Source: Flavobacteriales bacterium (GTDB taxonomy: Bacteria; Bacteroidota; Bacteroidia; Flavobacteriales; BACL11). From it: a DNA stretch of 64,000 nt. The notes below the pieces were generated by a model. That model searched no databases and was not told where the DNA came from. It saw nothing but the letters and a program-made list of their open reading frames with translations. Below, piece after piece: positions 7,411-37,096 of the stretch; positions within the stretch are counted from its first letter, which is position 1, and the number at the start of each line of letters is the position of its first letter. A program made the translations under genes and the position numbers. The stretch covers positions 5,341 to 69,340 of the forward strand of contig CANNBA010000012.1 of assembly GCA_947502765.1 (NCBI GenBank), given 5' to 3'.

Positions 7411-7443
7411 GTTTCTTTTTTTGCTGTAAAATTAACAAAAATC

Positions 7444-7944
7444 TTAGATAACTCTCAGCATATCAGTAGTCCATTTTGCTAAAGTGTAATCGTTATCCAC
7501 TTTAACAGTGTTTAAATTCATTTTTTTTCCGGCCTTTATATCAGAATCTGAATCACCAATAAGGTAGGAATTTTTAATATTAATCTCAGGAAAATCAATA
7601 ATTGCTTGCTCTATCATACCGGACTTTGGCTTCCTGCACATACAATTCATATCTTTCAAATGAGGACAATAATATATTTTATTGATTTTACCTCCCAATT
7701 TTTCAATCCTCTCTTGCATTTTAGTATGCAAAATATTTAAATCAGCCTCTGACATTATTCCCTTGGCAATCCCTTGCTGATTAGTTACAATAAGAATACG
7801 ATTAAATAAATTGCTTAGTTTTGAAATGGAATCCAAAGCTCCTGAGATAAATTCAAACTCTGAGAAATTTCGAACATATTTCCCTTCAAGTTTTTTATTT
7901 ATCACCCCATCTCTGTCTAAAAAGAGTGTGTCAAAATTAGGCAT
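7444..7944 (-). CDS. gmhB: D-glycero-D-manno-heptose 1,7-bisphosphate phosphatase (HAD family)
   Basis: HAD motif I LFLDRDGVIN and the zinc motif CPHLKDMNCMCRKP typical of GmhB. ATG at 7944 (MPNFDTLF...) is preferred over the track's TTG at 7965. Confidence 0.75.
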   Translation of the reverse strand: MPNFDTLFLDRDGVINKKLEGKYVRNFSEFEFISGALDSISKLSNLFNRILIVTNQQGIAKGIMSEADLNILHTKMQERIEKLGGKINKIYYCPHLKDMNCMCRKPKSGMIEQAIIDFPEINIKNSYLIGDSDSDIKAGKKMNLNTVKVDNDYTLAKWTTDMLRVI

Positions 7945-8518
7945 TCGGAAACATTTCTTCTTCAATAAGTTGGCAAATTATATGACCAACTAAAATATGA
8001 ACCTCTTGAATTCTTGGAGTGTCATCAGAAGGAACTTTAATCATTATATCGCAAATACTATTCATCTCACCACCCCCACTACCAGTAAAACCAATAGTTG
8101 TTAGGCCTAACTCATTCGCTTTTTTAAGCGCCTTTACCACATTTAGAGAATTTCCTGATGTAGAAATCCCAACTAAAATATCTCCTTTTCTTCCACAAGC
8201 CTCTAACATTCTAGCATATGTTTCATCATAACCAAAATCATTAGCGACAGCCGTCATATAAGAAGAATTTACATGCAAAGCCTCAGCATAAAGTGGTGGG
8301 CGATTCGTATAAAATCTTCCACTTAGTTCAGCTGAAATATGCTGGGCATCAGAGGCGCTACCTCCATTTCCGCAAAAAAGTATTTTTTTATCATCTTTAA
8401 ATGCCTTGATACTAAGCCCAATAATCTTCTCAATATTTGATTGAAGATTTTTATCATTTAAAACTCTAGTATAGTTTTCTACAGAACTTTTTATACAGCT
8501 ATTTATTCTACTTTTCAT
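7937..8518 (-). CDS. gmhA: Phosphoheptose (sedoheptulose-7-phosphate) isomerase, SIS domain
   Basis: CGNGGSASDAQHISAEL and GISTSGNS motifs of GmhA/SIS proteins; size 193 aa. Confidence 0.8.
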   Translation of the reverse strand: MKSRINSCIKSSVENYTRVLNDKNLQSNIEKIIGLSIKAFKDDKKILFCGNGGSASDAQHISAELSGRFYTNRPPLYAEALHVNSSYMTAVANDFGYDETYARMLEACGRKGDILVGISTSGNSLNVVKALKKANELGLTTIGFTGSGGGEMNSICDIMIKVPSDDTPRIQEVHILVGHIICQLIEEEMFPNA

Positions 8519-8545
8519 TTTAATGGTTTTGGTAAAAATACAAAA

Positions 8546-9691
8546 TTATAGAGTTTCATAAGCTAACTTTGTAAGTCTGCCTATTTCATCCCAGCCAAAT
8601 TTCGTATTAATTAATGTGCTGCCATTTTTTCGTACTCTTTCTAGGTTTTCTTGATCAGAAAAAATAAGATTTATTTTTTCAGCCAAATCATTAACATCTT
8701 CTGATTTAAACAAGAATCCATTTTCGTTATCAATTACAACTTCTTGTAATGGTGGTAAATCAGACACTAAAGCAGGTCTTTCATAACTTAAAGTCATCAT
8801 TAACACGCCACTTTGATATATTTTTTTATAGGGTAATACCACTAAATCTGATGCGCAATAATAATGCTCTACATCATCATGAGGAATAAACTTAGTGTGT
8901 AAAATAATATGTTTAGTAAGATTATTTTTATCGATAATTTCTTGATAATCAGCAAAATCATTCTCCCATAAGTTACCAGCAATTAATAAAACCGTATCTG
9001 GATTTGTAGCAACCACTGTTTTAAAAGATTGTAATAGAACATCTAATCCTTTTACTTTTTTTATCATTCCAAAGAAAAGTAATATTGTTTTCTCAGTAGC
9101 TAAGTTTAAATATTCTCTAGATTTTTTTTTATCTCTTTGGACATGAATAAACGGAACATAATTTCCATGTGGAATAATATGGATATTTCCTTTCAGTGAA
9201 GTGTTTAATTTAATTATTTCATCTTTACTAAACTGATTATGAGTTATAATCAAATCTGCTAACTTATAAACTAAATTAGATATTAAATTAGATTTATCCT
9301 TCTCAGCGAATGAAGTAACATCATGAATAGTTAGAACCACTTTGCCAAGTAATAATTTAACAAGTAAAAGATTAAATAATACTAATATATTAGTATAGAA
9401 AATATGAAAATGGAATATAGATACACCATTAAACCTTGCATGAAATACGGATTTAATAGTTCCTAATACCCATTTCAATCCACTAATAAAATAATAATTA
9501 GAAGAGAATAAATCATTATAAAAAGAATAAAAACTTACGCCATCAATAGATGGATTCTCAGTTTCATTATTTGAATATAAATTTAATTTTACATTCAATT
9601 TTGACAGCCCTAAACATTGACCATAAGTATAGAAATGGAAAGATCCTCCATGGGCTCCTAAAGTGTCTATAATTGCTACTTTTCTGTTCAT
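8546..9691 (-). CDS. Glycosyltransferase, group 1 (GT-B fold)
   Basis: 381 aa; the C-terminal half resembles group 1 glycosyltransferases; sits in the polysaccharide locus. Confidence 0.65.
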   Translation of the reverse strand: MNRKVAIIDTLGAHGGSFHFYTYGQCLGLSKLNVKLNLYSNNETENPSIDGVSFYSFYNDLFSSNYYFISGLKWVLGTIKSVFHARFNGVSIFHFHIFYTNILVLFNLLLVKLLLGKVVLTIHDVTSFAEKDKSNLISNLVYKLADLIITHNQFSKDEIIKLNTSLKGNIHIIPHGNYVPFIHVQRDKKKSREYLNLATEKTILLFFGMIKKVKGLDVLLQSFKTVVATNPDTVLLIAGNLWENDFADYQEIIDKNNLTKHIILHTKFIPHDDVEHYYCASDLVVLPYKKIYQSGVLMMTLSYERPALVSDLPPLQEVVIDNENGFLFKSEDVNDLAEKINLIFSDQENLERVRKNGSTLINTKFGWDEIGRLTKLAYETL

Positions 9692-9694
9692 TAC

Positions 9695-10603
9695 TTACAT
9701 TCTCAAACCTTCAAAATAGGACCTGTTAATGAGCCACCAAGTGGATAAATTTTTTCTTATTTGTGGATTAACTATCCATCTAATATTATTTTTAAAAAAT
9801 AGCCAAAAAATAAATCCGTAAGCAAAAACGCCCCCAATCTGTTTTAAAAAATAGACATGATTTCTAGTATTGTGCTTTAAAAAAAAATCTCCTCTATAAG
9901 TCTTTTTTATATCTTTTTCAAAGGACTTTGTCAAGCTCCCTACTTTATGATAAAATTTCACAAAAGGATAGAAAAACATCTTATGTTTTCCATCTTTCCA
10001 AACTCTATATGAAAAATCCGTATCATCAAAATAAACAAAATACTTTTCATCCATCATGCCAACATCCTGAAATACTTCTTTTTTAATTAGTAAACAACAA
10101 GTAGGAGCATATTCTACCTGGGTAATTTTATCATATTGCCCCTCATCCAAATCTTTCATCCCTCTGTGCAATGGCAAATATCCTTTACGTTTATTAAACC
10201 AACTTCCTGCATACCAGATATTTTGAGGGCTATCAAAATACATCATTTTTGGACTAACTAAACTACAAGTATTATCCTTTTGTGCTTTAATTAATTTTTC
10301 AATTAAAGCAACTTCAAATTCAACATCATTATTAATAATTAAAACCTGATCACATCCCTCTTCAATAGCTTTAATAATGCCTTGGTTATTTGCTTTTGCT
10401 ACTCCAAAATTTGTTTCATTTTTAATAAAAACAAGCCTGGGATCATTAGTTTTTGTTAAAATTGACAATGTATTATCCGTAGATGCATTATCAATCACAT
10501 AAAGGATTAAATTCTCATGTGTTTGTTTCCATACGCAATCCAAAAATGGCGGCAATACATCAGCAGAATTATAGCTTATAGTCACCAAGCCTATCTTATC
10601 CAT
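9695..10603 (-). CDS. Glycosyltransferase family 2
   Basis: N-terminal VTISYNSADVL...IDNASTDNT and a DxD-type motif (FDDTDFSYR), typical of GT2. Confidence 0.8.
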   Translation of the reverse strand: MDKIGLVTISYNSADVLPPFLDCVWKQTHENLILYVIDNASTDNTLSILTKTNDPRLVFIKNETNFGVAKANNQGIIKAIEEGCDQVLIINNDVEFEVALIEKLIKAQKDNTCSLVSPKMMYFDSPQNIWYAGSWFNKRKGYLPLHRGMKDLDEGQYDKITQVEYAPTCCLLIKKEVFQDVGMMDEKYFVYFDDTDFSYRVWKDGKHKMFFYPFVKFYHKVGSLTKSFEKDIKKTYRGDFFLKHNTRNHVYFLKQIGGVFAYGFIFWLFFKNNIRWIVNPQIRKNLSTWWLINRSYFEGLRM

Positions 10604-11460
10604 TTTGTAAAATCTTTATTTAACAATTCCGATAATTCTCTCACATCACTTTCAAAATGTTTTTTTAGAAAATTTCTTGTTAATTCAGGAAGTTGTGGTT
10701 TCTTATCACTTCTAAAAAGTAAATTTCTAATGGTTTTAGTCAAATTTTTAGACAATATATTGGCTACCATTTTTCTGAAAGCAACAAAAGAATAAACATG
10801 TCGAATAAACCTATTTTTAGGTGCCGTATAAGTGTTGTATTTCTTTTTTAAATAAGGTTGAAAATCATCATTTACTCCTAAAAATAAAAAAACACTATTT
10901 ACAACATCAGAAGTGTCATTTTTAAAATCTTCATAATCAATAAAATGAATATTATCCTTGCTAAATACTTCTAAATATCTTTTTATCTGCTTGCTATATT
11001 CGCTCACCTGAATATATTGCTGATAAAACAAATTCGCATTCTTATGTTTTGACTGCTTTTGAATAATTGTCTCAAAACTTTCTGAAATTAATCCTAAACT
11101 ATAATCCATTAAATAATGTGAAAATGCCCTATCAATAGGATTTCTAAGCATAATTATAATCTTAGCATCAGGATTATAGGTAAAAATTTTATGAGGCACA
11201 TCTTCATAAAATAAATAAGAGACGCTGGAATCACCTCTTAAAATGACATCATCTCTTTCAAAAAGTGAATTGTATTTTTCAAGGGTATCAATTCTGTTTT
11301 TATCATAATACAACTTTTGTTTTTGTAAAGATTGGTCAGAGAAAAAATCAGGTTCCTTTTGAGAACTCATCTCAATTTCAGAATGCTCATTCAAATAATG
11401 ATACAAAGAAGTTGTGCCTGCTTTTGGGGCTCCAACTATAAAAAAATCTACTTTTTTCAT
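10591..11460 (-). CDS. PAPS-dependent carbohydrate sulfotransferase
   Basis: 5'-phosphosulfate-binding loop FFIVGAPKAGTTSLYHYL and 3'-phosphate-binding motif MLRNPIDRAFSHY (PKxGTT / RxPxxRxxS pattern of the sulfotransferase fold). Confidence 0.8.
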   Translation of the reverse strand: MKKVDFFIVGAPKAGTTSLYHYLNEHSEIEMSSQKEPDFFSDQSLQKQKLYYDKNRIDTLEKYNSLFERDDVILRGDSSVSYLFYEDVPHKIFTYNPDAKIIIMLRNPIDRAFSHYLMDYSLGLISESFETIIQKQSKHKNANLFYQQYIQVSEYSKQIKRYLEVFSKDNIHFIDYEDFKNDTSDVVNSVFLFLGVNDDFQPYLKKKYNTYTAPKNRFIRHVYSFVAFRKMVANILSKNLTKTIRNLLFRSDKKPQLPELTRNFLKKHFESDVRELSELLNKDFTKWIR

Positions 11461-11978
11461 TTAATAAAAAATCTTTTTTTGATTACTACAACAATATTAC
11501 CCATTCTATGAATATTAAAAAGGAAAGCGAATCCAAATTTTACGGGAAATGATAACAAATGAAAAATCAAAGACAAGGGAGGAAAAGCAAATTCTTTTTT
11601 CTCATAACCAAATTTATCCATCATTTTAGAGGAGAATTTCTGTGATAAATATATTTCGCCATTTGAGAAGCCACCTTTCTTCCATTTATTAATTTTTGAT
11701 GGATCAACTCTTAGTTCGGATTTAGCATCAAAATCTGCTATATTCTCTTGCTTGATCAATCTATTTTCCTCAATACAGAACAATCTTAAGAGAAACTCAA
11801 TTTGATCTTTTTTAGTTGATTCTTTATTGCTATAACCAGTACATAGTGTTCCAAAAAAGTGCAGTTCTCTAAATGTAAAAATCTCTGCATTTTTTTCAAA
11901 AATACGCCCCAGAATAGTAGTGCCACTTCTGCTACCTCCAACAATAAATATTTGATTAGTATCACTCACGGAATTCAA
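11457..11978 (-). CDS. Truncated sulfotransferase-like protein (P-loop only, hydrophobic tail)
   Basis: IFIVGGSRSGTTILGRIF resembles the 5'-PSB loop, but no RxPxxRxxS motif is present. Only 173 aa. The C-terminus (LSLIFHLLSFPVKFGFAFLF) is hydrophobic. Confidence 0.45.
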   Translation of the reverse strand: MNSVSDTNQIFIVGGSRSGTTILGRIFEKNAEIFTFRELHFFGTLCTGYSNKESTKKDQIEFLLRLFCIEENRLIKQENIADFDAKSELRVDPSKINKWKKGGFSNGEIYLSQKFSSKMMDKFGYEKKEFAFPPLSLIFHLLSFPVKFGFAFLFNIHRMGNIVVVIKKRFFIK

Positions 11979-13296
11979 GATCTAGAATTCCTAAATTATC
12001 TGCCTTGTCAAATAGATTTTCACTTTTATAAACCATAGATTTTTTTATAGATCCAACGGTGTTATAAGTACAACTAAGCTGACGAGATCCCCAATCTATT
12101 TTATAACTCAAAACTTCTTTATTGTATTTATCATAGCACTTATATGAAAAAATTTCTTTACTTTTTTGTTGTTCAATTTTAACAATCTTATTTTTAAATA
12201 TTTTTCCAATCATCATCATTGGATAATAAGTGCTCTGAATTTCCATTTTTTCTTCATTATTTCTAAAAATAGAACCGCTAATAGTTCTTCCTCCCAAATT
12301 ATGATAAGTAGTTAATTCAATTGCTGATAACTTAGGATTACTCATCAACTCCAATAAATATTGTGCTGCAAACAATGACTGCAACAATGTATTTCCTGTT
12401 GTTTCTGACATTTGTAAATTCCATTCAGTGACCCAAATTGGCTTTTTAAATATCTTTACATAATTTCTAACCTCATTAGGATAATATTCATCAAAAAAAC
12501 TAATTGCTCTGTTTTTATAAATATCAAATGCCTCAGATTTATTTTTCCCTTCTGTTTCTTCTGAAAGCATTTGCCCATACTGATCCTCACCTTTTGTTAC
12601 TTTAGCATAGGAGTGAATAATAATGGCGTCATAAAAATTCATTGCAGCTAATCTATTATTCCAGACACTATGCCTATGCCCTATTTTTTCCTCTAGAGGT
12701 GCAGCAACTATAGCTGTTTCTATTTTTGGAAATTTAGCTTTTATTTTATCTGAACAGCTTTTTGCAAATAAGATATAATCATCAATTGTATACCCCTTAT
12801 TAAAATAACTTCTATTAGAAAGTTCACTTCCTAATTCTACTCCAATAACTTTAATATTATTAGCATGTAGCTTTTCAATCATCAATATAATATCATCATT
12901 ATCTACAAAAGGATTAGCTGAAAGCACAACACTTGCATTTGTTTTCTTAACTAAAACAATAAAATCATCAATATAATCATAGTTTTGATTCTTTTTTCTT
13001 CTTGAATTCTCTAAACCCCTAGATCTTTTAGGAAAGGTTCCTCCATGATACTTATCAATTTCATCAAAATCAAAACCATATCCATTTTTGCCAAAATGAT
13101 AGAAATTCCCTTCAGCTCCACCAGGAAACCTTAACACTTTAGGGTTCATTCTTACCACTTTATTAATAAATGAAGTATCATTCACATCACAATAAGTAAA
13201 GGCATTAGGAGTATCAAAACCAAAAATGTTTTCTTTTATATTTTGAGCAAAAACTACCTCAGCACAAATCAATAATATAATAATTACTTGTTTCAT
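11962..13296 (-). CDS. Secreted TIM-barrel glycoside-hydrolase-like protein (clan GH-A-like)
   Basis: Signal peptide. GVELGSELSN resembles the ELGNE acid/base motif, and VTEWNL is a candidate nucleophile strand. Family not assignable by eye. Confidence 0.4.
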   Translation of the reverse strand: MKQVIIILLICAEVVFAQNIKENIFGFDTPNAFTYCDVNDTSFINKVVRMNPKVLRFPGGAEGNFYHFGKNGYGFDFDEIDKYHGGTFPKRSRGLENSRRKKNQNYDYIDDFIVLVKKTNASVVLSANPFVDNDDIILMIEKLHANNIKVIGVELGSELSNRSYFNKGYTIDDYILFAKSCSDKIKAKFPKIETAIVAAPLEEKIGHRHSVWNNRLAAMNFYDAIIIHSYAKVTKGEDQYGQMLSEETEGKNKSEAFDIYKNRAISFFDEYYPNEVRNYVKIFKKPIWVTEWNLQMSETTGNTLLQSLFAAQYLLELMSNPKLSAIELTTYHNLGGRTISGSIFRNNEEKMEIQSTYYPMMMIGKIFKNKIVKIEQQKSKEIFSYKCYDKYNKEVLSYKIDWGSRQLSCTYNTVGSIKKSMVYKSENLFDKADNLGILDLEFRE

Positions 13297-15664: not shown

Positions 15665-15666
15665 AA

Positions 15667-18826: not shown

Positions 18827-18827
18827 A

Positions 18828-19619: not shown

Positions 19620-19629
19620 TGCAACTGTT

Positions 19630-20490
19630 TTATACTTCAGTAGGATGCCATATCGTTTTTATTTCTTGACATTTTTCAATAAAATAAGGCGATTGATCTG
19701 TTTTCCCATTCCAATTTTTTTGTTTGTAAATGGTTACTCTTTTCAAATTTTCTACCGATAGTTTCTCGATCTGTTTTATTTCTTCATTATTGTCTCCACA
19801 ATAAACAATCGCATTTACATCCTTATGAGAAGCAAAATGACTGATTAGTTCTTTTCTTTTTCCTGTTAAAATATTTACCACCCCATGAGGAACATCTGCT
19901 GTATTTATTACTTCAGCAAAAGAAATACTTACCATAGGATTTTCTTCAGAAGATAAAATAACACAAGTATTCCCTCCAACAATAACAGGAGCAACTACAG
20001 AAATCAGTGCTAATAATGGGTGTTCGTTAGCAGAAATAACCGAAACAACTCCCATGCTTTGCAATACTGAAAAATTAAAATGATTGGATGCCACAGGATT
20101 AACCGAACTGAAAATCTGCTGAAATTTATCGCTCCAGCCGGCATAATATATTAACCTATCTATACTTAGTTCTACTTCATTTTTTGCTTGAGATTTTGAT
20201 GATCCAGTCATCATTAACTCCTCTATAAATTGTGATTTTCTGCCTTCTAACATTTCTGCAATTCTGTAAAGAACCTGACCTCTATTTAATGCAGATGCAC
20301 TTTCCCAAGATTTTTGAACTTTTCTGGCCTCAACTACCGCATTTCTAAAATCCTTTCTGGACGAAAGACACATATTTGCTAGTAATTCTCCCTTCTTATT
20401 TTTCATATGAAAATATCTTCCTGATTCTGATCTTGGGAATTTTCCTCCAATAAAGATTTTATATGTTTTTAAAACGTCTATTCTTGCCAT
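19630..20490 (-). CDS. Aldehyde-dehydrogenase-like protein lacking the catalytic domain (cofactor-binding half only)
   Basis: Aligns by eye to the ALDH N-terminal/NAD-binding region (IYYAGWSDKF, GNTCVILSSEENP). It ends at LKRVTIYKQKNW, where ALDHs have LKxVTLELGGK. No catalytic Glu or Cys segment. TAATG-coupled to the full-length ALDH. Confidence 0.6.
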   Translation of the reverse strand: MARIDVLKTYKIFIGGKFPRSESGRYFHMKNKKGELLANMCLSSRKDFRNAVVEARKVQKSWESASALNRGQVLYRIAEMLEGRKSQFIEELMMTGSSKSQAKNEVELSIDRLIYYAGWSDKFQQIFSSVNPVASNHFNFSVLQSMGVVSVISANEHPLLALISVVAPVIVGGNTCVILSSEENPMVSISFAEVINTADVPHGVVNILTGKRKELISHFASHKDVNAIVYCGDNNEEIKQIEKLSVENLKRVTIYKQKNWNGKTDQSPYFIEKCQEIKTIWHPTEV

Positions 20491-21944
20491 TATTCAAATT
20501 TTAAATATGCTTTCAATCCATGTAAGCCTCCTTCTCTGCCAAAACCACTCTCTTTAAAGCCTCCAAAAGGAGATGCAGGATCAAATTTATTGTATGTATT
20601 TGCCCAAACTACTCCAGCATTTAATTCTTTAGTTAGTTTGAAAATCTTAGCCCCTTTTTCAGTCCAAACACCAGCAGACAAACCAAAAGGGGTATTATTT
20701 GCTTTTTCAATCACCTCATCAATTGTTCTAAAAGTCTGAATTGCTAAAACAGGACCAAAAATTTCTTCTTGAACTATGGCGTGAGACTGAGAAACATTTA
20801 AAAACAAAGTTGGAGGACACCAATTTCCTTTTTTAGAAATACTGCATTTTGACTGATAAATCTCTCCTCCTTCTTTTTTGCCAATTTTTATATACTTATT
20901 TATTGTGGCTAATTGTTCTTTGGAATTTATCGCTCCAATATCTGTATTTTTATCTAAGGGATTTCCAACAATTAATGAAGACATTCTGTCTTTTAATTTC
21001 TCAATAACATCTTTAGCGACACTTTCTTGGACAAAAAGTCGAGACCCCGCACAACAAACATGTCCTTGATTGAAAAATATTGCATTAATAATTCCTTCAA
21101 CCGCTTGATCAATAGCGGCATCTTCAAAAATAATATTTGCTCCTTTGCCTCCAAGTTCTAGAGTAGATTTCTTTTTAGTGCCTGAAATACTTTTCTGAAT
21201 TAACTTCCCCACATTGGTAGATCCTGTGAATGCAATCTTATCAATATGCGGATGATTTACTAGCTCAGCACCAGTATTTCCTGCGCCAGTTACAATGTTT
21301 ACAACCCCTTTCGGAAGACCGCTTTCCTGAATAATTTCAGCAAGTTTAAGAGCTGTTAATGAGGTCGTTTCAGCTGGTTTTAAAACAACAGTATTGCCAC
21401 ATGCAATGGCTGGAGCAATTTTCCAAGCTGCCATTAGCAGAGGGAAATTCCAAGGGATTATCTGGCCTGCAACTCCTAATGGTTTAGGAATTTTATTTGG
21501 GAAAGCATACTCTAATTTATCTGCCCAACCCGCATAATAAAAGAAATGATTTGCCGCCAAAGGAATATCAACATTTATGGATTCTCTAATGGGCTTTCCT
21601 CCATCCATACTTTCAATCACTGCAAATTCCTTTGCTCTTTCTTGTATCATTCTGGCAATTCTAAAAATATATTTTCCCCTTTCTTTTGCTGTAAGTTTTG
21701 ACCAACTTTTAAAAGCTATTCTAGCAGATTTTACTGCCAAATCAATATCTTTTTTATTGGCTTCAGCAATCTTAGCAATTACCTCATCTGTTGCTGGGTT
21801 TATTGTATCAAAATACTTTTTTGAGTTTGGCTTTACAAACGCTCCATTTATAAACAAATCATATTTTTCTTTTAATCTAATATGATCTGTACTTTCAAGA
21901 GCATCAGCATACTTCCAACTTTTATTTAACTGTAATTTACTCAT
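20490..21944 (-). CDS. NAD(P)-dependent aldehyde dehydrogenase
   Basis: Full ALDH motifs: IPWNFPL, FTGSTNVG, catalytic LELGGKG and GHVCCAGSRL. Confidence 0.9.
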   Translation of the reverse strand: MSKLQLNKSWKYADALESTDHIRLKEKYDLFINGAFVKPNSKKYFDTINPATDEVIAKIAEANKKDIDLAVKSARIAFKSWSKLTAKERGKYIFRIARMIQERAKEFAVIESMDGGKPIRESINVDIPLAANHFFYYAGWADKLEYAFPNKIPKPLGVAGQIIPWNFPLLMAAWKIAPAIACGNTVVLKPAETTSLTALKLAEIIQESGLPKGVVNIVTGAGNTGAELVNHPHIDKIAFTGSTNVGKLIQKSISGTKKKSTLELGGKGANIIFEDAAIDQAVEGIINAIFFNQGHVCCAGSRLFVQESVAKDVIEKLKDRMSSLIVGNPLDKNTDIGAINSKEQLATINKYIKIGKKEGGEIYQSKCSISKKGNWCPPTLFLNVSQSHAIVQEEIFGPVLAIQTFRTIDEVIEKANNTPFGLSAGVWTEKGAKIFKLTKELNAGVVWANTYNKFDPASPFGGFKESGFGREGGLHGLKAYLKFE

Positions 21945-21947
21945 ATG

Positions 21948-22847
21948 TTAATCTTTTGAAAAATAATCTAAGGATTGATAATGTCCGCTTTCTTGCTTTA
22001 CAAGTTGCATCAAAATATCATTTGCCAAGCTACTTGCTCCAAATCTATACAAATCTTTATTCATCCACTCATCACCTAGGGTTTCGTTTAGCATCACCAA
22101 ATATTGTAAAGCTATCTTAGATGTAGCGATTCCTCCTGCTGGTTTCATTCCTATTTTTATTCCTGTCTTTTTGTAATAATCTTTTATCGCATTTAGCATA
22201 ACAAAAGTAACAGGCATAGTTGCAGCCGGGCTAATTTTACCAGTAGAAGTTTTAATAAAATCAGCTCCAGCATATATTGCAATATCACTAGCTTTTCTCA
22301 CATTATCAAGAGTATCTAACTCTCCTGTTTCTAAAATAACTTTTAAGTGAGCTTTGCCGCAAACTTCTTTAACAGCTGCAATTTCATCATACACAAAATT
22401 ATATTCCCCCGCTAGGAATTTTCCTCTTGAAATAACCATATCAACCTCATCGGCGCCTTGATCTACAGCAAATTTTGTGTCTGAAAGTTTTACTTCAAGA
22501 GTAGACTGCCCACTAGGAAATGCTGTAGAAACAGAGGCAATATTTATTCCGCTTCCCTTCAATTCTTTTTTTGCAATTGAAACAAAAGTAGGATAAACAC
22601 AAACAGCCGCAACACTAGGAAGTCCTGGTAAAGAATCGTGCAAATGTCTTGCTTTATAACACAAACTTTTGACTTTTTCTGGAGTATCTTTTCCTTCCAA
22701 AGTAGTGAGATCAATCATACTTAAAGCTAGATGTAATCCGTATTCTTTTGCCTCATTTTTTATACTTCTTTTACAAAAACGATCAATCCGCTCATCTACT
22801 CCAAGCTTGTCAATTTTAGCTGTTTTTGTTAAATCTGGGAAACTCAA
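21948..22847 (-). CDS. deoC: Deoxyribose-phosphate aldolase (long, class 2 type)
   Basis: DEVDMVI and the Schiff-base lysine context FIKTSTGK; KPAGGI near the C-terminus. Confidence 0.85.
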   Translation of the reverse strand: MSFPDLTKTAKIDKLGVDERIDRFCKRSIKNEAKEYGLHLALSMIDLTTLEGKDTPEKVKSLCYKARHLHDSLPGLPSVAAVCVYPTFVSIAKKELKGSGINIASVSTAFPSGQSTLEVKLSDTKFAVDQGADEVDMVISRGKFLAGEYNFVYDEIAAVKEVCGKAHLKVILETGELDTLDNVRKASDIAIYAGADFIKTSTGKISPAATMPVTFVMLNAIKDYYKKTGIKIGMKPAGGIATSKIALQYLVMLNETLGDEWMNKDLYRFGASSLANDILMQLVKQESGHYQSLDYFSKD

Positions 22848-22927
22848 AATTCTTTATTGCTGATTAGAAAGACAAAGCTACTATTTTATATGATATATTA
22901 CATGATTTCTAATTCATAAATTTTGAT

Positions 22928-22935
22928 TAAATTTG
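22928..22935 (+). promoter_or_regulatory. Candidate -7 promoter box TAAATTTG for cysC-cysD-cysN
   Basis: Exact TAnnTTTG match 12 nt upstream of ATG 22948. It overlaps the TTG start (22933) used in the ORF track. Confidence 0.45.
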
Positions 22936-22947
22936 TGGCCTTATTTT

Positions 22948-23556
22948 ATGAAAGAAGAAAAAGAAAATATATTCTCCATTTTTGATGATGCGCTTCAGAG
23001 AAAGCACAAAGAAGAACTACTTAATCAAAAATCAAAAGTTATTTGGATGACTGGACTTTCAGGATCTGGAAAGACAACCATAGCCAAGGAAGTAGAAAAA
23101 TATTTACACTCTCAAGGGATTTTAAGTCAGCTTTTGGATGGAGACAACATCAGGGTTGGTATCAGTAATAATCTTTCTTTTTCAGCTCAAGATAGAACAG
23201 AAAACGTAAGAAGAATTGCAGAAGTATCAAAACTATTTATGAATTGCGGAGTGGTTACAATAAACTGTTTTATTAGCCCAACAATAGCAATAAGAAAAAT
23301 AGCAAAGGATATCATTGGAAAAGAAAACTTTATTGAAGTTTATATAAATGCATCACTAGAAACTTGTGAAAGTAGAGATGTAAAAGGACTCTACCAAAAA
23401 GCAAGAAAAGGGGAAATAAAAGATTTTACCGGAATTAATGCTCCATTTGAAGCTCCTGAAAATCCAGATTTAGCGATAAACACAACCCAACTTTCAATTG
23501 ATGAGTCAGTACAAAAAGTATTGGATTATTGTTTGCCGAGAATAAAAAATAACTAA
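22948..23556 (+). CDS. cysC: Adenylyl-sulfate (APS) kinase
   Basis: P-loop WMTGLSGSGKTTIA and the LDGDNIR motif. Start moved to ATG 22948 (MKEEKENIF...). Confidence 0.9.
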   Translation: MKEEKENIFSIFDDALQRKHKEELLNQKSKVIWMTGLSGSGKTTIAKEVEKYLHSQGILSQLLDGDNIRVGISNNLSFSAQDRTENVRRIAEVSKLFMNCGVVTINCFISPTIAIRKIAKDIIGKENFIEVYINASLETCESRDVKGLYQKARKGEIKDFTGINAPFEAPENPDLAINTTQLSIDESVQKVLDYCLPRIKNN

Positions 23557-23558
23557 CT

Positions 23559-24464
23559 ATGAGTTCGTACAATTTAACACACTTAAAAGAACTTGAATCG
23601 GAAGCAATTTTCATATTAAGAGAAGTAGCTGCCCAATTTGAAAAACCTGTAATGTTGTTTTCTGGAGGGAAAGATTCTATCATTATGTTTCATCTTGCCA
23701 GAAAAGCTTTTCATCCAGCAAAAGTGCCATTTCCTTTAATGCATGTAGATACCGGCCATAACTTTCCAGAAACCATTGAATTTAGAGATAAATTAATACA
23801 CAGCTCTGGAGAAACCCTAATTGTAAAATACGTTCAGGATTCCATTAACAGAGGAACGGCTGTGGAAGAAACTGGTCCTAACACATCAAGAAATGGATTA
23901 CAAACCGTAACGCTTTTAGAAGGTTTAGAAGAAGGAAAATACGACTGTGCTATGGGTGGAGCTAGAAGAGATGAGGAAAAAGCAAGAGCTAAGGAAAGAT
24001 TCTTTTCGCACAGAGATGAATTCGGACAATGGGATCCAAAAAATCAAAGACCAGAACTTTGGAATTTATTTAATGGGCGAAAAAAAATGGGCGAACATTT
24101 TAGAGTATTTCCAATTTCAAACTGGACAGAAATGGATGTATGGCAATATATTTTACACGAAAAAATAGAATTGCCTTCATTGTATTTCTCTCATCAAAGA
24201 GAGGTAGTGAACAGAAATGGTGTACTGCTTGGAAAATGCGATTACATTACCCTAAAAAATGATGAAAAATGGGAAAAAATGACCATTAGATGCCGAACAA
24301 TTGGAGACATGACCTGTACTGGAGTTACAAAATCTGAAGCAGCAGACTTAGAAGCAATTATTGAAGAAGTAGCATCAACAAGAGTTACGGAAAGAGGTGG
24401 AAGAGCAGATGACAAAAGATCAGAAGCTGCTATGGAAGACAGAAAAAAAGAAGGATATTTTTAA
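23559..24464 (+). CDS. cysD: Sulfate adenylyltransferase subunit 2
   Basis: PP-loop FSGGKDS and a highly conserved CysD-like sequence throughout (MHVDTGHNFPET...). Confidence 0.95.
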   Translation: MSSYNLTHLKELESEAIFILREVAAQFEKPVMLFSGGKDSIIMFHLARKAFHPAKVPFPLMHVDTGHNFPETIEFRDKLIHSSGETLIVKYVQDSINRGTAVEETGPNTSRNGLQTVTLLEGLEEGKYDCAMGGARRDEEKARAKERFFSHRDEFGQWDPKNQRPELWNLFNGRKKMGEHFRVFPISNWTEMDVWQYILHEKIELPSLYFSHQREVVNRNGVLLGKCDYITLKNDEKWEKMTIRCRTIGDMTCTGVTKSEAADLEAIIEEVASTRVTERGGRADDKRSEAAMEDRKKEGYF

Positions 24465-24470
24465 AAAACT

Positions 24471-25739
24471 ATGAATAGCACCAAAGGATATTTAGACATG
24501 GAGTTATTGCGCTTCACAACAGCAGGAAGTGTAGATGACGGAAAAAGCACATTGATTGGAAGGTTGCTTTATGACAGTAAAGCAATTTTTGAAGATCAAT
24601 TGGAATTACTTAAAGAAACAAGTAAGCAAAGAGGTGAAGAAGGAATCAATCTAGCCCTTTTAACAGATGGATTAAGATCGGAAAGAGAGCAAGGAATTAC
24701 TATTGATGTTGCCTACAGATATTTTGCAACTCCAAAAAGAAAATTCATTATTGCAGACACCCCAGGACATATTCAGTATACAAGAAATATGGTTACTGGG
24801 GCTTCAACCGCTAATCTAGCTTTGTTATTAGTTGATGCCAGGCATGGGGTAATTAAACAAACAAAGAGACACGCATTTATTGCTTCTCTTTTACAGATTC
24901 CTCACATTGCTGTTTGTATCAATAAAATGGATTTAGTGGAGTACAGTAAAGATGCATTTGAAAAAATAAAGTCTGACTTTGAAGATTTTGCTTCAAAATT
25001 AGAAATCAAAGACATTCATTTTATTCCTATTTCGGCACTTAATGGAGATAATGTTGTGGATAGATCTAAAAATATGCCATGGTATGAAGGATCTACACTC
25101 ATGCATCTTTTAGAAAATATTCATATTGTTTCAGATCACAACCATATTGATTGTAGATTCCCTGTCCAGTTTGTAGTGCGTCCTCAATCAGTTAAATATC
25201 CAGACTATAGAGGATATGCAGGAAGAATTGAGGGGGGCGTTTTTAAGCCTGGAGATGAAGTAACTATCCTGCCTTCAGGATTTAAATCTAAAATCAAATC
25301 AATCGATACCTTTGATGGAGCAGTTTTAGAAGCATTTTCTCCAATGTCAGTGTGTATGACTTTAACTGATGATATTGATATTAGTAGAGGTGATATGCTG
25401 GTTAGAGAAAACAATAAACCAAATATTGAGCAAGATATTGAGGTAATGATTTGTTGGATGAATGAAAAAAAGATGATCCCAAATGGGAAATATGCTATCA
25501 GGCATACTTCTCAAAGCGCAAGATGCATCATTAAAGAGGTTAAATACAAAATGGATATCAATTCTTTACACAGAATGGAAGATGATAAAGAAATTGGATT
25601 GAATGATATTGGAAGAGTAACTATCCGTACTACCAAACCTTTATTCTTTGATAGTTATACAAGAAATAGAAATACTGGAAGTATTATTTTAGTAGATGAG
25701 GCGACAAATGAAACTGTTGCTGCTGGGATGATTATCTAA
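24471..25739 (+). CDS. cysN: Sulfate adenylyltransferase subunit 1 (GTPase)
   Basis: GTPase motifs GSVDDGKST, DTPGH and NKMD; ITIDVAYRYF, typical of CysN. Confidence 0.95.
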   Translation: MNSTKGYLDMELLRFTTAGSVDDGKSTLIGRLLYDSKAIFEDQLELLKETSKQRGEEGINLALLTDGLRSEREQGITIDVAYRYFATPKRKFIIADTPGHIQYTRNMVTGASTANLALLLVDARHGVIKQTKRHAFIASLLQIPHIAVCINKMDLVEYSKDAFEKIKSDFEDFASKLEIKDIHFIPISALNGDNVVDRSKNMPWYEGSTLMHLLENIHIVSDHNHIDCRFPVQFVVRPQSVKYPDYRGYAGRIEGGVFKPGDEVTILPSGFKSKIKSIDTFDGAVLEAFSPMSVCMTLTDDIDISRGDMLVRENNKPNIEQDIEVMICWMNEKKMIPNGKYAIRHTSQSARCIIKEVKYKMDINSLHRMEDDKEIGLNDIGRVTIRTTKPLFFDSYTRNRNTGSIILVDEATNETVAAGMII

Positions 25740-35448: not shown

Positions 35449-35462
35449 TACAATAGTTTTGA

Positions 35463-35470
35463 CAAATATA
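35463..35470 (-). promoter_or_regulatory. Candidate -7 box (TATATTTG on the minus strand) for the Cys-rich cargo gene
   Basis: Plus-strand CAAATATA, 14 nt upstream of the ATG at 35448. Confidence 0.4.
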
Positions 35471-35554
35471 CGAAAAATTTCTTTAGTTAAAACAATAGAA
35501 AACTTTTAGATAACTAATTAATGAACATATTAGTGTCAAAAGAAATAATTAAAC

Positions 35555-35562
35555 TAAATTTG
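35555..35562 (+). promoter_or_regulatory. Candidate -7 box TAAATTTG for thioredoxin-fold cargo 1
   Basis: Exact TAnnTTTG, 27 nt upstream of ATG 35590. The flanking sequence is conserved with the paralog's promoter at 37146. Confidence 0.5.
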
Positions 35563-35589
35563 CACCTTAACTAATTTAAAAAAGAAATA

Positions 35590-37044: not shown

Positions 37045-37066
37045 TTTTTATAAAGTTCAAAATTTT

Positions 37067-37096
37067 AAACCCTGGCTATTTAGTCAGGGTTTTTAT
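37067..37096 (+). terminator. Rho-independent terminator after thioredoxin-fold cargo 1
   Basis: AAACCCTG / CAGGGTTT stem with a 10-nt loop, followed by TTTTTATTT. Confidence 0.7.

What the first reader, a model, noticed from the sequence alone, without database searches (positions are those of the whole stretch)
7444..25739. Self-contained sulfated-polysaccharide island: Wzx/Wzy locus with four sulfotransferase genes, CysQ, and a divergent CysC-CysD-CysN PAPS factory
Seen directly: three ORFs (10591-11460, 15667-16575, 16560-17471) carry both PAPS-binding motifs of the sulfotransferase fold, a PKxGTT-like 5'-PSB loop and the MLRNPI(D/E)RA(F/Y)S 3'-PB motif. A fourth ORF (11457-11978) keeps only the P-loop. 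They are interleaved with a Wzx flippase, a Wzy-like polymerase, GT1 and GT2 glycosyltransferases, a WecA-like initiating transferase, an SDR epimerase/dehydratase and gmhA/gmhB. All lie in one co-directional array in which most adjacent genes overlap or abut. CysQ follows the flippase gene directly; it removes PAP, the inhibitory product of sulfotransferases. Across a 100-bp divergent promoter region lie cysC, cysD and cysN, the complete sulfate-to-PAPS pathway. No cysH/cysIJ reduction genes are present in the window. Established knowledge: dedicated PAPS modules next to sulfotransferases are the logic of rhizobial nodPQ/nodH. Sulfated bacterial polysaccharides made through Wzx/Wzy loci are rare and poorly characterised. 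Inference: the island makes a multiply sulfated, possibly heptose-containing, surface or secreted polysaccharide whose structure and role are undescribed.
Basis: partly seen in the sequence, partly recalled or inferred. Interest (0 to 1): 0.75.

Follow-up and report, generated by a model that had tools for sequence, protein, structure and literature searches.

The report
Conserved sulfated-glycan locus with PAPS genes
An uncultured, small-genome brackish/marine Flavobacteriales bacterium (BACL11-like) carries a gene cluster that most likely builds a heavily sulfated cell-surface sugar chain, with the genes for the sulfate donor PAPS next to it; the design is already published for Vibrio and Cobetia capsules, but here it is conserved across about 35 related species rather than being a mobile island.

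Summary
Most of the sequence observation holds. Three ORFs are intact PAPS-type carbohydrate sulfotransferases (STs; Pfam E 2e-22 to 6e-14). They sit in a tight co-directional array with Wzx, a Wzy_C protein, GT2, GT4, a WecA-like transferase, an SDR, GmhA/GmhB-like genes and CysQ. cysC-cysD-cysN lie across an 85-bp divergent spacer.

Corrections:
- The fourth "ST" (173 aa) is an in-frame deletion remnant of a 335-aa ST that is intact in sister species.
- Three unmentioned genes (deoC, an aldehyde dehydrogenase and a conserved 286-aa half-Aldedh) separate cysQ from the spacer.
- The locus also encodes a secreted clan GH-A (PslG/GH51-like) hydrolase and a Wzi/RemB-like outer-membrane protein.

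A sulfated glycan fed by an adjacent PAPS module is the best reading. It is not an "island": the same gene order at the same chromosomal site recurs in about 35 species-level MAGs. It is not self-contained: no Wza/Wzc, heptose kinase or nucleotidyltransferase was found.

Whether cysDNC is dedicated could not be tested. ST + cysDNC + cysQ polysaccharide clusters are already published for Vibrio and Cobetia, so this is a new member of a known kind. It stands out for as many STs as GTs and for family-wide conservation in streamlined genomes.

The parts
4739..6379 (-). 546-aa secreted beta-rich protein, Wzi/RemB-like outer-membrane candidate; its start overlaps the wecA stop by 1 nt
   Evidence: It has a signal-peptide-like N-terminus and no TM segments. 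The window protein itself has no Pfam or NCBIfam hit. Among 23 aligned homologs (69-87% id), 3 hit Pfam Caps_assemb_Wzi (best E 3e-8). One source names a 72%-identical homolog 'gliding motility protein RemB'. The AF2 model failed (pLDDT 35), so the fold is not shown.
6379..7410 (-). WecA/MraY-family initiating polyprenyl-phosphate sugar-1-phosphate transferase
   Evidence: TIGR02380 wecA E 6.7e-44, but 150 bits against a cutoff of 326. Pfam Glycos_transf_4 on the identical protein. About 11 TM segments.
7444..7965 (-). GmhB-like HAD-IIIA phosphatase (gene callers start it at 7944, giving 166 aa)
   Evidence: NF006506, 154.5 bits against a cutoff of 178; the HAD-IIIA subfamily domain model is above cutoff.
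7937..8518 (-). GmhA-like SIS-domain sugar-phosphate isomerase
   Evidence: TIGR00441 gmhA, 204.3 bits against a cutoff of 209.45; SIS_2 E 4.5e-26.
8546..9691 (-). GT4-family glycosyltransferase
   Evidence: Glycos_transf_1 E 1e-26, Glyco_transf_4 E 8e-7.
9695..10603 (-). GT2-family glycosyltransferase
   Evidence: Glycos_transf_2 E 1.7e-20.
10591..11460 (-). Sulfotransferase ST-A (intact, cytoplasmic)
   Evidence: Sulfotransfer_1 E 2e-22. PDB 3RNL E 7e-37. Aligns to HS NST and 3-OST through the PSB loop, KEPDFF and the 3'-PB motif. No TM segment.
11457..11978 (-). Remnant of a fourth sulfotransferase (in-frame loss of about 165 central residues, including the 3'-PB motif)
   Evidence: Sulfotransfer_3 22.5 bits, below GA 27, N-terminus only. 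Its N- and C-terminal halves match residues 1-86 and 247-335 of 334-341-aa orthologs in about 20 species. Those orthologs are full Sulfotransfer_3 proteins (E 7e-25).
11962..13296 (-). Secreted clan GH-A glycoside-hydrolase-like protein (TIM barrel plus beta-sandwich), PslG/GH51/GH39-like
   Evidence: Signal-peptide-like N-terminus. AF2 pLDDT 81.5, pTM 0.85. Foldseek PDB: GH51 arabinofuranosidases E 2e-12, iduronidase E 3e-7, PslG 9g17 E 3e-6. E154, E158 and E291 (WVTEWN) are invariant in 24 homologs.
13293..14420 (-). SDR nucleotide-sugar epimerase/dehydratase with a 40-residue insertion
   Evidence: Epimerase E 5e-50. The best NCBIfam hit is GalE, below cutoff. The insertion varies between species.
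14417..15664 (-). Wzy_C-domain membrane protein (polymerase, or ligase-type transferase)
   Evidence: Wzy_C 33.4 bits against GA 31.7. About 10-12 TM segments. It is the most divergent gene of the locus across species (36-74% id).
15667..16575 (-). Sulfotransferase ST-B (intact)
   Evidence: Sulfotransfer_1 E 7.8e-15. 42% identical to ST-C.
16560..17471 (-). Sulfotransferase ST-C (intact)
   Evidence: Sulfotransfer_1 E 5.7e-14. PDB 3RNL E 4.6e-40, and HS NST/3-OST hits. 2125 homologs, the closest in uncultured Flavobacteriales.
17468..18826 (-). Wzx-type (MOP superfamily) flippase
   Evidence: Polysacc_synt 41.6 bits against GA 28.2; MatE E 8.5e-11.
18828..19619 (-). CysQ 3'(2'),5'-bisphosphate nucleotidase (PAP phosphatase)
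   Evidence: TIGR01331, 259.9 bits against a cutoff of 228.8. Lies directly upstream of wzx in 33 of 34 related loci that include wzx.
19630..20490 (-). Conserved 286-aa protein equal to the N-terminal half of an aldehyde dehydrogenase; probably not part of the glycan pathway
   Evidence: Aldedh profile positions 12-233 of 461. 31% id to the neighbouring Aldedh. Exactly 286 aa and 76-88% id in 13 species. Absent from many otherwise identical loci.
20490..21944 (-). Full-length aldehyde dehydrogenase; a conserved neighbour, probably housekeeping
   Evidence: Aldedh E 1e-164. 82-94% id in 12 species.
21948..22847 (-). DeoC deoxyribose-phosphate aldolase; first gene of the co-directional array
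   Evidence: TIGR00126, 196 bits against a cutoff of 117.3. A DeoC equivalog (233-261 aa or about 300 aa) occupies this position in every related locus with coverage.
22848..22932 (.). 85-bp divergent intergenic spacer (deoC <-> cysC)
   Evidence: Sequence. One TAnnTTTG box faces each way (22873-22880 minus, 22928-22935 plus), but the motif is not enriched in the window (106 found, 106.7 expected).
22933..23556 (+). CysC adenylyl-sulfate kinase (true start probably the in-frame ATG at 22948, giving 202 aa as in orthologs)
   Evidence: APS_kinase E 3.5e-61; TIGR00455 229 bits against a cutoff of 138.7. Ortholog lengths; sequence.
23559..24464 (+). CysD sulfate adenylyltransferase small subunit
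   Evidence: TIGR02039, 424 bits against a cutoff of 396.6.
24471..25739 (+). CysN sulfate adenylyltransferase GTPase subunit
   Evidence: TIGR02034, 568.6 bits against a cutoff of 336.1.

Best explanation
The region 4739-25739 is the core-genome locus for a densely sulfated surface glycan of a BACL11-type uncultured Flavobacteriales bacterium.

Proposed mechanism (inferred from family assignments, not demonstrated here):
1. CysD/CysN activate sulfate to APS, and CysC phosphorylates APS to PAPS.
2. A WecA-like transferase starts a short repeat unit on undecaprenyl phosphate at the cytoplasmic face. A GT2 and a GT4 extend it, giving about three sugars. An SDR epimerase and the GmhA/GmhB-like pair supply or modify precursors.
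3. Three soluble heparan-sulfate-ST-like sulfotransferases sulfate the lipid-linked unit, or its precursors, in the cytoplasm. That allows up to about one sulfate per sugar.
4. CysQ hydrolyses the inhibitory by-product PAP.
5. Wzx flips the unit and the Wzy_C protein polymerises or transfers it.
6. A secreted PslG-like clan GH-A hydrolase trims or releases chains.
7. A Wzi/RemB-like outer-membrane protein helps to retain or assemble the product at the surface.

The backbone genes are conserved across the family. The number of STs (3-5) and an occasional acetyltransferase differ between species. This suggests a conserved backbone with species-specific decoration.
For: Shown:
- HMM and structure-sequence support for three intact STs with PSB, KEPxF and 3'-PB motifs.
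- CysQ, CysC, CysD and CysN score above curated equivalog or subfamily cutoffs.
- Wzx, Wzy_C, GT2, GT4 and a WecA-family gene are present.
- The STs lack signal peptides and TM segments.
- The 444-aa protein has a GH-A fold with invariant glutamates.
- Three of 23 homologs of the 546-aa protein hit Pfam Caps_assemb_Wzi, and one source names a homolog RemB.
- The same architecture and flanks occur in about 35 species-level MAGs plus many metagenome contigs.
- An APS kinase gene adjoins the locus in 31 of 31 loci with coverage.
- No cysH/I/J is present in the window.

Precedent:
- Chemically verified sulfated capsules of Vibrio KMM 8419 and Cobetia marina KMM 1449 come from clusters holding cysDNC (+cysQ) and STs (PMC11641403, PMC11766843).
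- Synechan is a Wzx/Wzy product sulfated by cluster-encoded STs (PMC8205485).
Against: - No chemistry, and the organism is uncultured.
- The acceptor of each ST is unknown.
- No Wza/OPX or Wzc/PCP was found in the window, so export and chain-length control are unexplained.
- The Wzy_C hit is marginal (33.4 bits against 31.7), and that domain also occurs in WaaL and PglL.
- Family-wide conservation is atypical of O-antigen and capsule loci.
- gmhA and gmhB score just below equivalog cutoffs, and the heptose kinase and nucleotidyltransferase are absent.
- cysDN is missing from the locus in 11 sister species.
- Tight gene spacing is genome-wide in this streamlined genome.
Confidence: 0.7

Rival explanations
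1. The product is not a polymer. It is a single short sulfated oligosaccharide transferred once, to lipid A-core (an LOS-type glycolipid) or to proteins (Bacteroidota-style general O-glycosylation). In this reading the Wzy_C protein acts as a WaaL/PglL-type ligase rather than a polymerase.
For: - The Pfam Wzy_C domain is shared by Wzy, WaaL and PglL, and the hit is marginal.
- No Wzz/Wzc or Wza was found in the window.
- The locus is conserved in order and content across about 35 species. Such conservation is unlike hypervariable O-antigen and capsule loci and more like core-glycan or general-glycosylation loci (background knowledge).
- Only three GTs are present.
Against: - A secreted PslG/GH51-like hydrolase inside the locus and a Wzi/RemB-like outer-membrane protein fit a polymer better.
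- The Wzy_C gene is the most divergent gene of the locus, as is usual for polymerases.
- No direct test was possible.
Confidence: 0.2
2. cysC-cysD-cysN is the organism's ordinary (only) sulfate-activation operon for cysteine synthesis, and its position next to the glycan locus is inherited synteny rather than a dedicated 'PAPS factory'. The STs simply draw on the general PAPS pool.
For: - In this genome, co-directional overlap also joins the clearly unrelated housekeeping genes deoC, aldh and tsaB to the array, so adjacency is weak evidence.
- In 11 sister species cysDN is not at the locus.
- Whether the copy is dedicated was not testable.
Against: - No cysH/cysI/cysJ is present in 64 kb.
- cysC and cysQ, which are needed for PAPS use and PAP removal, are linked to the locus in every covered species.
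- When cysCDN is absent, another cysC-containing two-gene module occupies the same slot, as if the locus always needs its own PAPS supply.
- Vibrio and Cobetia show dedicated copies in analogous clusters (PMC11641403, PMC11766843).
Confidence: 0.2
3. The sulfotransferases act on a non-glycan acceptor (a lipid, sterol-like molecule or small metabolite), as Bacteroides BT_0416 does, and merely sit among glycan genes.
For: In Bacteroides a PAPS gene set adjoins a sulfotransferase that sulfates cholesterol (PMC9417993). The acceptor specificity of ST-A, ST-B and ST-C is untested.
Against: - The STs are interleaved with, and overlap, wzx, wzy, GT2 and the hydrolase in every species.
- Apart from one uncharacterised bacterial ST (3RNL), their closest solved relatives are carbohydrate (heparan-sulfate) STs, not cytosolic SULTs.
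Confidence: 0.05

Closest known systems
Sulfated capsule clusters of Cobetia marina KMM 1449 and Vibrio sp. KMM 8419 (PMC11766843, PMC11641403)
   Same: A polysaccharide biosynthesis cluster that holds sulfotransferase genes together with PAPS synthesis genes (cysD, cysN, cysC; cysQ as well in Cobetia). [quoted passage not shown] The products are chemically verified sulfated glycans.
   Different: - Those are Gammaproteobacteria with ABC-transporter (kps) capsule export, 70-80-gene regions, few STs relative to GTs, strain-variable content and signs of HGT.
- Here the host is a Flavobacteriales bacterium and the route is Wzx/Wzy-type.
- The locus is compact (about 21 kb) with as many STs as GTs, and it is conserved across a family.
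- The product here is unknown.
Synechan xss cluster of Synechocystis PCC 6803 (PMC8205485)
   Same: A Wzx/Wzy-dependent pathway with cluster-encoded sulfotransferases acting on the repeat unit. The OPX gene is not in the cluster. Cyanobacterial STs are among the distant homologs of ST-C (32-33% id).
   Different: xss has 8 GTs, 2 STs and a PCP. It carries no cysDNC or cysQ, is plasmid-borne and has its own regulators. Here there are 3 GTs and 3 intact STs (3-5 in relatives), a PAPS module and CysQ, no PCP, and a chromosomal core location.
Bacteroides thetaiotaomicron BT_0411-BT_0416 (PMC9417993)
   Same: Same phylum. Putative PAPS biosynthesis genes lie immediately next to a PAPS-dependent sulfotransferase.
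   Different: It has a single ST with a sterol acceptor and no glycan assembly genes.
Rhizobial nodPQ/nodH
   Same: A dedicated sulfate-activation module is paired with a carbohydrate sulfotransferase.
   Different: The acceptor is a lipo-chitooligosaccharide signal, the genes are plasmid or symbiosis-island borne, and nodPQ is a demonstrable second copy. Second-copy status could not be tested here.
PslG of the Pseudomonas aeruginosa psl locus and Wzi of group 1 capsules
   Same: - PslG is a hydrolase with a GH-A TIM barrel plus beta-sandwich encoded inside an exopolysaccharide biosynthesis locus (9g17 hit, E 3e-6).
- Wzi is an outer-membrane beta-barrel family that assembles capsule at the surface (Caps_assemb_Wzi hits in homologs).
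   Different: Sequence identity is about 9-16%, and the best fold matches are GH51 enzymes rather than PslG. The window's 546-aa protein does not itself reach any Pfam threshold, and its model failed.

Membership tests
PAPS-dependent carbohydrate sulfotransferase (Pfam Sulfotransfer_1/_3; heparan-sulfate ST-like fold) | HMM score above the gathering threshold | tested here: met
   ST-A scores 80.3 bits, ST-B 55.4 and ST-C 52.6 against GA 22. The 173-aa ORF scores 22.5 against GA 27, so it does not meet the threshold.
PAPS-dependent carbohydrate sulfotransferase (Pfam Sulfotransfer_1/_3; heparan-sulfate ST-like fold) | 5'-PSB loop (PKxGTT-like), 3'-PB motif (RxPxxRxxS) and a catalytic acidic residue | tested here: met
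   The motifs are read directly. They align with the IIGVKKGGTRAL, EPHFF and VVRDPVTRAISDY segments of 3-OST-3A. That this Glu is the catalytic base in 3-OSTs is recalled knowledge. In the 173-aa ORF the 3'-PB motif is deleted.
PAPS-dependent carbohydrate sulfotransferase (Pfam Sulfotransfer_1/_3; heparan-sulfate ST-like fold) | Demonstrated sulfate transfer to a glycan acceptor | not testable with these tools
   Requires an enzyme assay.
Wzx/Wzy-dependent polysaccharide pathway | Initiating polyprenyl-phosphate glycosyl-1-phosphate transferase | tested here: met
   Glycos_transf_4/WecA family. It scores below the wecA 'exception' cutoff, so the sugar specificity is unknown.
Wzx/Wzy-dependent polysaccharide pathway | Wzx flippase | tested here: met
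   Polysacc_synt 41.6 bits against GA 28.2.
Wzx/Wzy-dependent polysaccharide pathway | Wzy polymerase (as distinct from a WaaL/PglL ligase) | tested here: inconclusive
   Wzy_C 33.4 bits against GA 31.7. The domain does not separate polymerases from ligases, and there was no NCBIfam hit.
Wzx/Wzy-dependent polysaccharide pathway | PCP (Wzz/Wzc) and OPX (Wza) components | tested here: not met
   None was found among the Pfam-scanned ORFs of the 64-kb window. They could lie elsewhere, as the OPX gene does for synechan (PMC8205485).
Sulfate activation / PAPS cycle (CysD, CysN, CysC, CysQ) | All four enzymes present and above curated cutoffs | tested here: met
   CysD scores 424 bits against 396.6, CysN 568.6 against 336.1, CysC 229 against 138.7 and CysQ 259.9 against 228.8.
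Dedicated (second-copy) PAPS module as in nodPQ or Vibrio KMM 8419 | A separate assimilatory cysDN/cysH set exists elsewhere, or no sulfate-reduction genes exist at all | not testable with these tools
NDP-heptose biosynthesis | GmhA isomerase and GmhB phosphatase equivalogs | tested here: inconclusive
   gmhA scores 204.3 bits against a cutoff of 209.45, and gmhB 154.5 against 178. These are family-level matches only.
NDP-heptose biosynthesis | Heptose-7-P kinase and heptose-1-P nucleotidyltransferase (HldE or HddA/HddC) | tested here: not met
   No PfkB/GHMP kinase or NTP-transferase was found in the locus or elsewhere in the window.
Genomic island | Variable presence among relatives, mobility genes, insertion at tRNA or other hot spots | tested here: not met
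   The locus has the same site, flanks and order in about 35 species. No integrase or transposase was seen. GC is only slightly lower (0.27-0.30 against about 0.33).

The most novel reading that the evidence does not exclude
A vertically inherited, glycosaminoglycan-like surface glycan with roughly one sulfate per sugar is a core trait of the streamlined, abundant BACL11-type marine and brackish Flavobacteriales. Species would differ in their 'sulfation code' (3-5 STs, with or without an acetyltransferase). Free-living heterotrophic bacteria would then be an unrecognised source of sulfated polysaccharide in seawater. The PAPS supply would be a swappable module: in 11 sister species cysDN is replaced at the same slot by a highly conserved 153-158-aa NMNAT-like adenylyltransferase paired with a distinct cysC, which could be a previously unrecognised minimal ATP sulfurylase.
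Probability: 0.2. Interest if true: 0.75.

Novelty: new member of a known kind. Interest (0 to 1): 0.5.

Why it matters
Sulfated polysaccharides in the sea are usually attributed to algae, and within the bacteria the synechan paper ascribes them to cyanobacteria alone. Bacterial producers outside the cyanobacteria have only recently been tied to gene clusters (Vibrio and Cobetia, 2024-2025).

This locus would extend that logic to uncultured Flavobacteriales with genomes of roughly 1.2-1.7 Mb that are common in brackish and marine plankton. About 21 kb (more than 1% of such a genome) is kept across a whole family, which implies strong selection.

If the product is confirmed, it bears on the marine carbon and sulfur budgets of dissolved and particulate glycans, and on phage, grazer and cation interactions of streamlined bacterioplankton. 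It would also supply a compact set of three to five carbohydrate sulfotransferases plus a PAPS-recycling module for engineering sulfated glycans.

Tried and rejected
1. Sigma-70 promoter and terminator scan of 4000-23200. There was no enrichment over shuffles (102 against 97 promoter-like sites), so it was uninformative for operon structure.
2. The Bacteroidota -7 box TAnnTTTG. Two correctly oriented copies lie in the 85-bp spacer, but the motif is not enriched window-wide (106 against 106.7). I kept this only as a weak hint.
3. AlphaFold2 of the 546-aa protein. The model failed (pLDDT 35), probably because the alignment was too shallow (69-87% id), so no fold search was run. A profile search against PDB sequences found nothing.
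4. The idea that the 286-aa Aldedh fragment is a fresh pseudogene. I rejected it: the protein is exactly 286 aa and 76-88% identical in 13 species.
5. The idea that the 173-aa ORF is a small P-loop protein in its own right. I rejected it in favour of an internal deletion.
6. The idea that the SDR insertion is a conserved zinc ribbon. I rejected it: the cysteines are not conserved across species.
7. The idea that the 153-158-aa nucleotidyltransferase of sister loci is the missing heptose-1-P adenylyltransferase. It is not supported: the best matches are NMN adenylyltransferases, and no rfaE domain II model appeared among the hits.
8. Literature search for ST + cysQ in Flavobacteriales. It returned no papers.
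9. I could not determine whether cysH/cysIJ or a second cysDN exist in the genome. No tool gave whole-genome access after the one genome-contig scan.

Full report
WHAT IS IN THE SEQUENCE

ORF listing and HMM scans show a co-directional minus-strand array from 22847 down to 4062. In transcription order it reads:
- deoC (21948-22847), a full-length aldehyde dehydrogenase (20490-21944) and a 286-aa protein equal to the N-terminal half of an aldehyde dehydrogenase (19630-20490);
- cysQ (18828-19619), wzx (17468-18826), sulfotransferase ST-C (16560-17471) and ST-B (15667-16575);
- a Wzy_C membrane protein (14417-15664) and an SDR epimerase/dehydratase (13293-14420);
- a 444-aa protein without a Pfam family (11962-13296) and a 173-aa ORF with only a weak N-terminal Sulfotransfer_3 match (11457-11978);
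- ST-A (10591-11460), GT2 (9695-10603), GT4 (8546-9691), a GmhA-like SIS protein (7937-8518) and a GmhB-like HAD phosphatase (7444-7965);
- a WecA/MraY-family transferase (6379-7410), a 546-aa protein without a Pfam family (4739-6379) and housekeeping tsaB (4062-4739).

Gaps between neighbours range from a 29-nt overlap to 33 bp. Across an 85-bp spacer (22848-22932), cysC, cysD and cysN run on the plus strand (22933-25739). CysQ, CysC, CysD and CysN all score above NCBIfam curated cutoffs.

THE SULFOTRANSFERASES

ST-A, ST-B and ST-C exceed the Sulfotransfer_1 and Sulfotransfer_3 gathering scores. ST-B and ST-C are 42% identical to each other, and ST-A is 32% identical to each of them.

Their best solved relative is the bacterial sulfotransferase 3RNL (E about 1e-37 to 1e-40). 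Next come the heparan-sulfate N- and 3-O-sulfotransferases. The alignment covers the 5'-PSB loop, a KEPxF(F/L) motif opposite the EPHFF segment of 3-OST-3A, and the 3'-PB motif. None has a signal peptide or TM segment, so they should act in the cytoplasm, where PAPS is made.

The 173-aa ORF is not a fourth functional enzyme. About 20 related species have a 334-341-aa Sulfotransfer_3 protein at this position (E 7e-25). The window ORF matches its first 86 or so and last 90 or so residues. It lacks about 165 central residues, including the VRDQRDVLLSQ 3'-PB segment. The same 173-aa gene is called on independent metagenome contigs, so the deletion is real and not an assembly error.

1. deoC, aldh and the half-Aldedh lie between cysQ and the divergent spacer.
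 - A DeoC equivalog occupies this slot in every related locus with coverage.
 - The two Aldedh genes occur in 12-13 species.
 - The half-length protein is always 286 aa and 76-88% identical, so it is a maintained gene rather than debris.
 - Many otherwise identical loci lack the Aldedh pair, so the pair is probably not part of the glycan pathway.
2. The 444-aa protein has a signal-peptide-like N-terminus.
 - Its AlphaFold2 model is confident (pLDDT 81.5, pTM 0.85).
 - The fold is a clan GH-A TIM barrel plus beta-sandwich. It resembles GH51 arabinofuranosidases (E 2e-12), GH39 iduronidase and PslG (E 3e-6).
 - Three glutamates are invariant, including the one in WVTEWN.
 - PslG is the hydrolase encoded inside the Pseudomonas psl exopolysaccharide locus, which makes it a good functional analogy.
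3. The 546-aa protein is secreted and beta-rich, with an aromatic C-terminus.
 - Three of 23 close homologs reach Pfam Caps_assemb_Wzi (best E 3e-8).
 - One source names a homolog 'gliding motility protein RemB'.
 - Its structure prediction failed, so the outer-membrane barrel assignment remains inference.

WHO CARRIES IT, AND IS IT AN ISLAND?

The 546-aa protein is 97% identical to a protein of 'Cryomorphaceae bacterium BACL11 MAG-121015-bin20'. BACL11 is an uncultured brackish and marine Flavobacteriales lineage. Reported features are about 33% GC, a MAG size of 1.19 Mb at 75% completeness and only 4% non-coding DNA (PMC4699468). It is a GTDB placeholder family with genomes of about 1.7 Mb (PMC7214798). 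The window's GC (about 0.32) and tight gene packing fit this description.

ST-A is encoded with 100% identity on at least 24 metagenome contigs that show the same locus. A scan of one genome per GTDB species, using an ST-C alignment, returned 43 loci. Thirty-five of them (L010-L045 except L044) share the architecture, all from uncultured Flavobacteriales-type MAGs. Counting the three additional contigs L007-L009, 38 loci show it.

The shared layout is as follows:
- SprA-GcvH-TonB and a PAPS module lie on one side.
- Then come deoC-(aldh-aldhF)-cysQ-wzx-ST-ST-(ST)-wzy-SDR-hydrolase-(335-aa ST)-ST-(acetyltransferase)-GT2-GT4-gmhA-gmhB-wecA.
- The 546-aa gene follows in the three loci that extend past wecA: the window, L001 and L007.

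Median amino-acid identities to the window run from 48% (wzy) to 89% (cysD). This is therefore a vertically inherited, position-fixed core locus, not an island. The slightly lower GC of 8-18 kb (0.27-0.30) is the only island-like trait.

The decoration genes do vary:
- Relatives have 3-5 intact STs.
- Some have a hexapeptide acetyltransferase.
- The hydrolase and ST-A fall into two divergent classes (about 40% and 60% identity for the hydrolase; about 32% and 50-80% for ST-A).

THE PAPS MODULE

Twenty species have the divergent cysC-cysD-cysN arrangement seen in the window. Eleven lack cysDN within the flank, including the closest genome-collection relative L010 (78-90% identical proteins). 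In the same slot they carry a distinct cysC (about 50% identical) followed by a 153-158-aa protein.

That protein is 79-94% conserved and has GRFQPYHQGH and ISATKIR motifs. Its best matches are NMN adenylyltransferases. In L024 the pair is inverted as a unit. Four loci lack coverage. So 31 of 31 covered loci keep an APS kinase gene beside deoC-cysQ-wzx. This supports a functional tie between PAPS supply and the locus, and it shows that cysDN itself is dispensable at this site.

Whether the small adenylyltransferase replaces CysDN as a minimal ATP sulfurylase is an untested idea. Canonical ATP sulfurylase belongs to the same nucleotidyltransferase superfamily (background knowledge).

The window contains no cysH/cysI/cysJ. 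I could not examine the rest of the genome, so 'dedicated' remains unproven.

HOW IT MOST LIKELY WORKS

The family assignments are shown; the pathway itself is inferred.
1. CysDN and CysC make PAPS.
2. A WecA-like enzyme, a GT2 and a GT4 build a repeat unit of about three sugars on undecaprenyl phosphate.
3. Three cytoplasmic STs sulfate it, and CysQ removes PAP.
4. Wzx flips the unit and the Wzy_C protein polymerises it.
5. A secreted GH-A hydrolase trims it, and a Wzi/RemB-like protein assembles it at the surface.

With three GTs and three intact STs (up to five in relatives), the predicted charge density approaches one sulfate per sugar. Synechan, by contrast, has 2 sulfates per 8 sugars from 2 STs and 8 GTs (PMC8205485).

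The heptose suggestion is weak. gmhA and gmhB score just under equivalog cutoffs, and no kinase or nucleotidyltransferase is present.

RIVALS

- The Wzy_C domain also marks WaaL/PglL ligases, no Wzc or Wza is present, and the locus is unusually conserved. A single sulfated oligosaccharide on lipid A-core or on proteins is therefore a serious alternative (about 0.2).
- cysCDN could be the general sulfate-activation operon (about 0.2). This is compatible with the main model.
- A non-glycan acceptor is unlikely (about 0.05).

COMPARISON WITH WHAT IS KNOWN

The concept is already published. Cobetia marina KMM 1449 and Vibrio sp. KMM 8419 make chemically characterised sulfated capsules from clusters containing cysN/C and cysD plus STs, with cysQ as well in Cobetia. 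[quoted passage not shown] Those systems are ABC/kps-type, large and strain-variable.

Synechan is the characterised Wzx/Wzy example but lacks PAPS genes. Bacteroides BT_0411-0416 shows the PAPS-plus-ST adjacency in the same phylum, for a sterol acceptor. No paper in the library links STs and cysQ in Flavobacteriales.

I therefore file this as a new member of a known kind. Four things distinguish it: the host lineage, the Wzx/Wzy context, the ST:GT ratio and the family-wide conservation in streamlined genomes.

VERDICT

A sulfated glycan with an adjacent PAPS supply is the best reading. 'Island' and 'self-contained' are not supported, and dedication of the PAPS module is untested.
- Interest is 0.5.

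Noticed in passing
L010:337-813, L042:4021-4497, L033:6602-7063 and 8 other related loci (not in the window): In 11 sister species cysDN is absent from the locus. In the same slot, a distinct cysC (about 50% id) is followed by a 153-158-aa NMNAT-like adenylyltransferase. It is 79-94% conserved and carries GRFQPYHQGH and ISATKIR motifs. In L024 the pair is inverted as a unit. It may be a minimal ATP sulfurylase replacing CysDN, or an unrelated NAD-salvage gene.
   Followed up: partly
window 19630-20490: A 286-aa protein equal to the N-terminal (cofactor-binding) half of an aldehyde dehydrogenase, only 31% identical to the full-length Aldedh next to it. It is exactly 286 aa and 76-88% identical in 13 species, so it is a maintained gene of unknown role, not a recent pseudogene.
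   Followed up: partly
window 21948-22847; L008:7113-7862, L031:7138-7866, L033:7141-7842: A DeoC (deoxyribose-phosphate aldolase) equivalog sits between the PAPS module and cysQ in every related locus with coverage. It comes either as a form of about 300 aa (with the two Aldedh genes) or as a 233-261-aa form that is only about 30% identical. Why it is so stably linked is unexplained.
   Followed up: partly
L008:16407-16892, L009:16405-16890; ST counts in L010-L045: Related loci differ in decoration genes: 3-5 intact sulfotransferases, and a hexapeptide-repeat acetyltransferase in some. The hydrolase and ST-A fall into two divergent classes. This looks like a variable cassette within a conserved backbone locus.
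   Followed up: partly
window 22928-22950: cysC most likely starts at the in-frame ATG at 22948 (202 aa, as in orthologs) rather than at the TTG at 22933. A TAAATTTG box (Bacteroidota -7-like) lies 13 nt upstream, and a TAGCTTTG box faces deoC at 22873-22880. The motif is not enriched in the window overall.
   Followed up: partly
window 13293-14420 (residues about 133-172): The SDR epimerase carries an insertion of about 40 residues with a C...CxxC pattern in many species. The cysteines are not universally conserved, and one species (L033) lacks the insertion.
   Followed up: partly
window 4062-4739 and 4739-6379: Housekeeping tsaB (t6A synthesis) overlaps the stop of the last locus gene by 1 nt. 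Gene overlap and abutment are the rule throughout this window, consistent with a streamlined genome (4% non-coding reported for BACL11).
   Followed up: partly
L041 (CAJWTV010000035.1, labelled uncultured Polaribacter sp.): A 7-kb contig binned as Polaribacter carries the same wzx-ST-ST-wzy-SDR-hydrolase segment (43-70% id). This may be mis-binning or a transfer outside the main lineage.
   Followed up: no
L046-L048 (Cyanobacteriota, Spirulina, Xenococcaceae MAGs): Outside the Bacteroidota, the homologs of ST-C recovered by the genome scan include cyanobacterial ones (32-33% id over the full length). Cyanobacteria are the group best known for sulfated exopolysaccharides.
   Followed up: no
window 26906-34045, 34762-38606, 44147-53135, 56449-62651: The rest of the window holds SprA (the T9SS translocon, 2379 aa), three small proteins with T9SS C-terminal sorting domains, RuvA/RuvB, an alternative complex III operon, and a two-component system next to an ABC transporter whose PBP_like_2 binding protein suggests a Pst-type phosphate system. 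SprA-GcvH-TonB is the conserved flank of the glycan locus in all relatives.
   Followed up: partly
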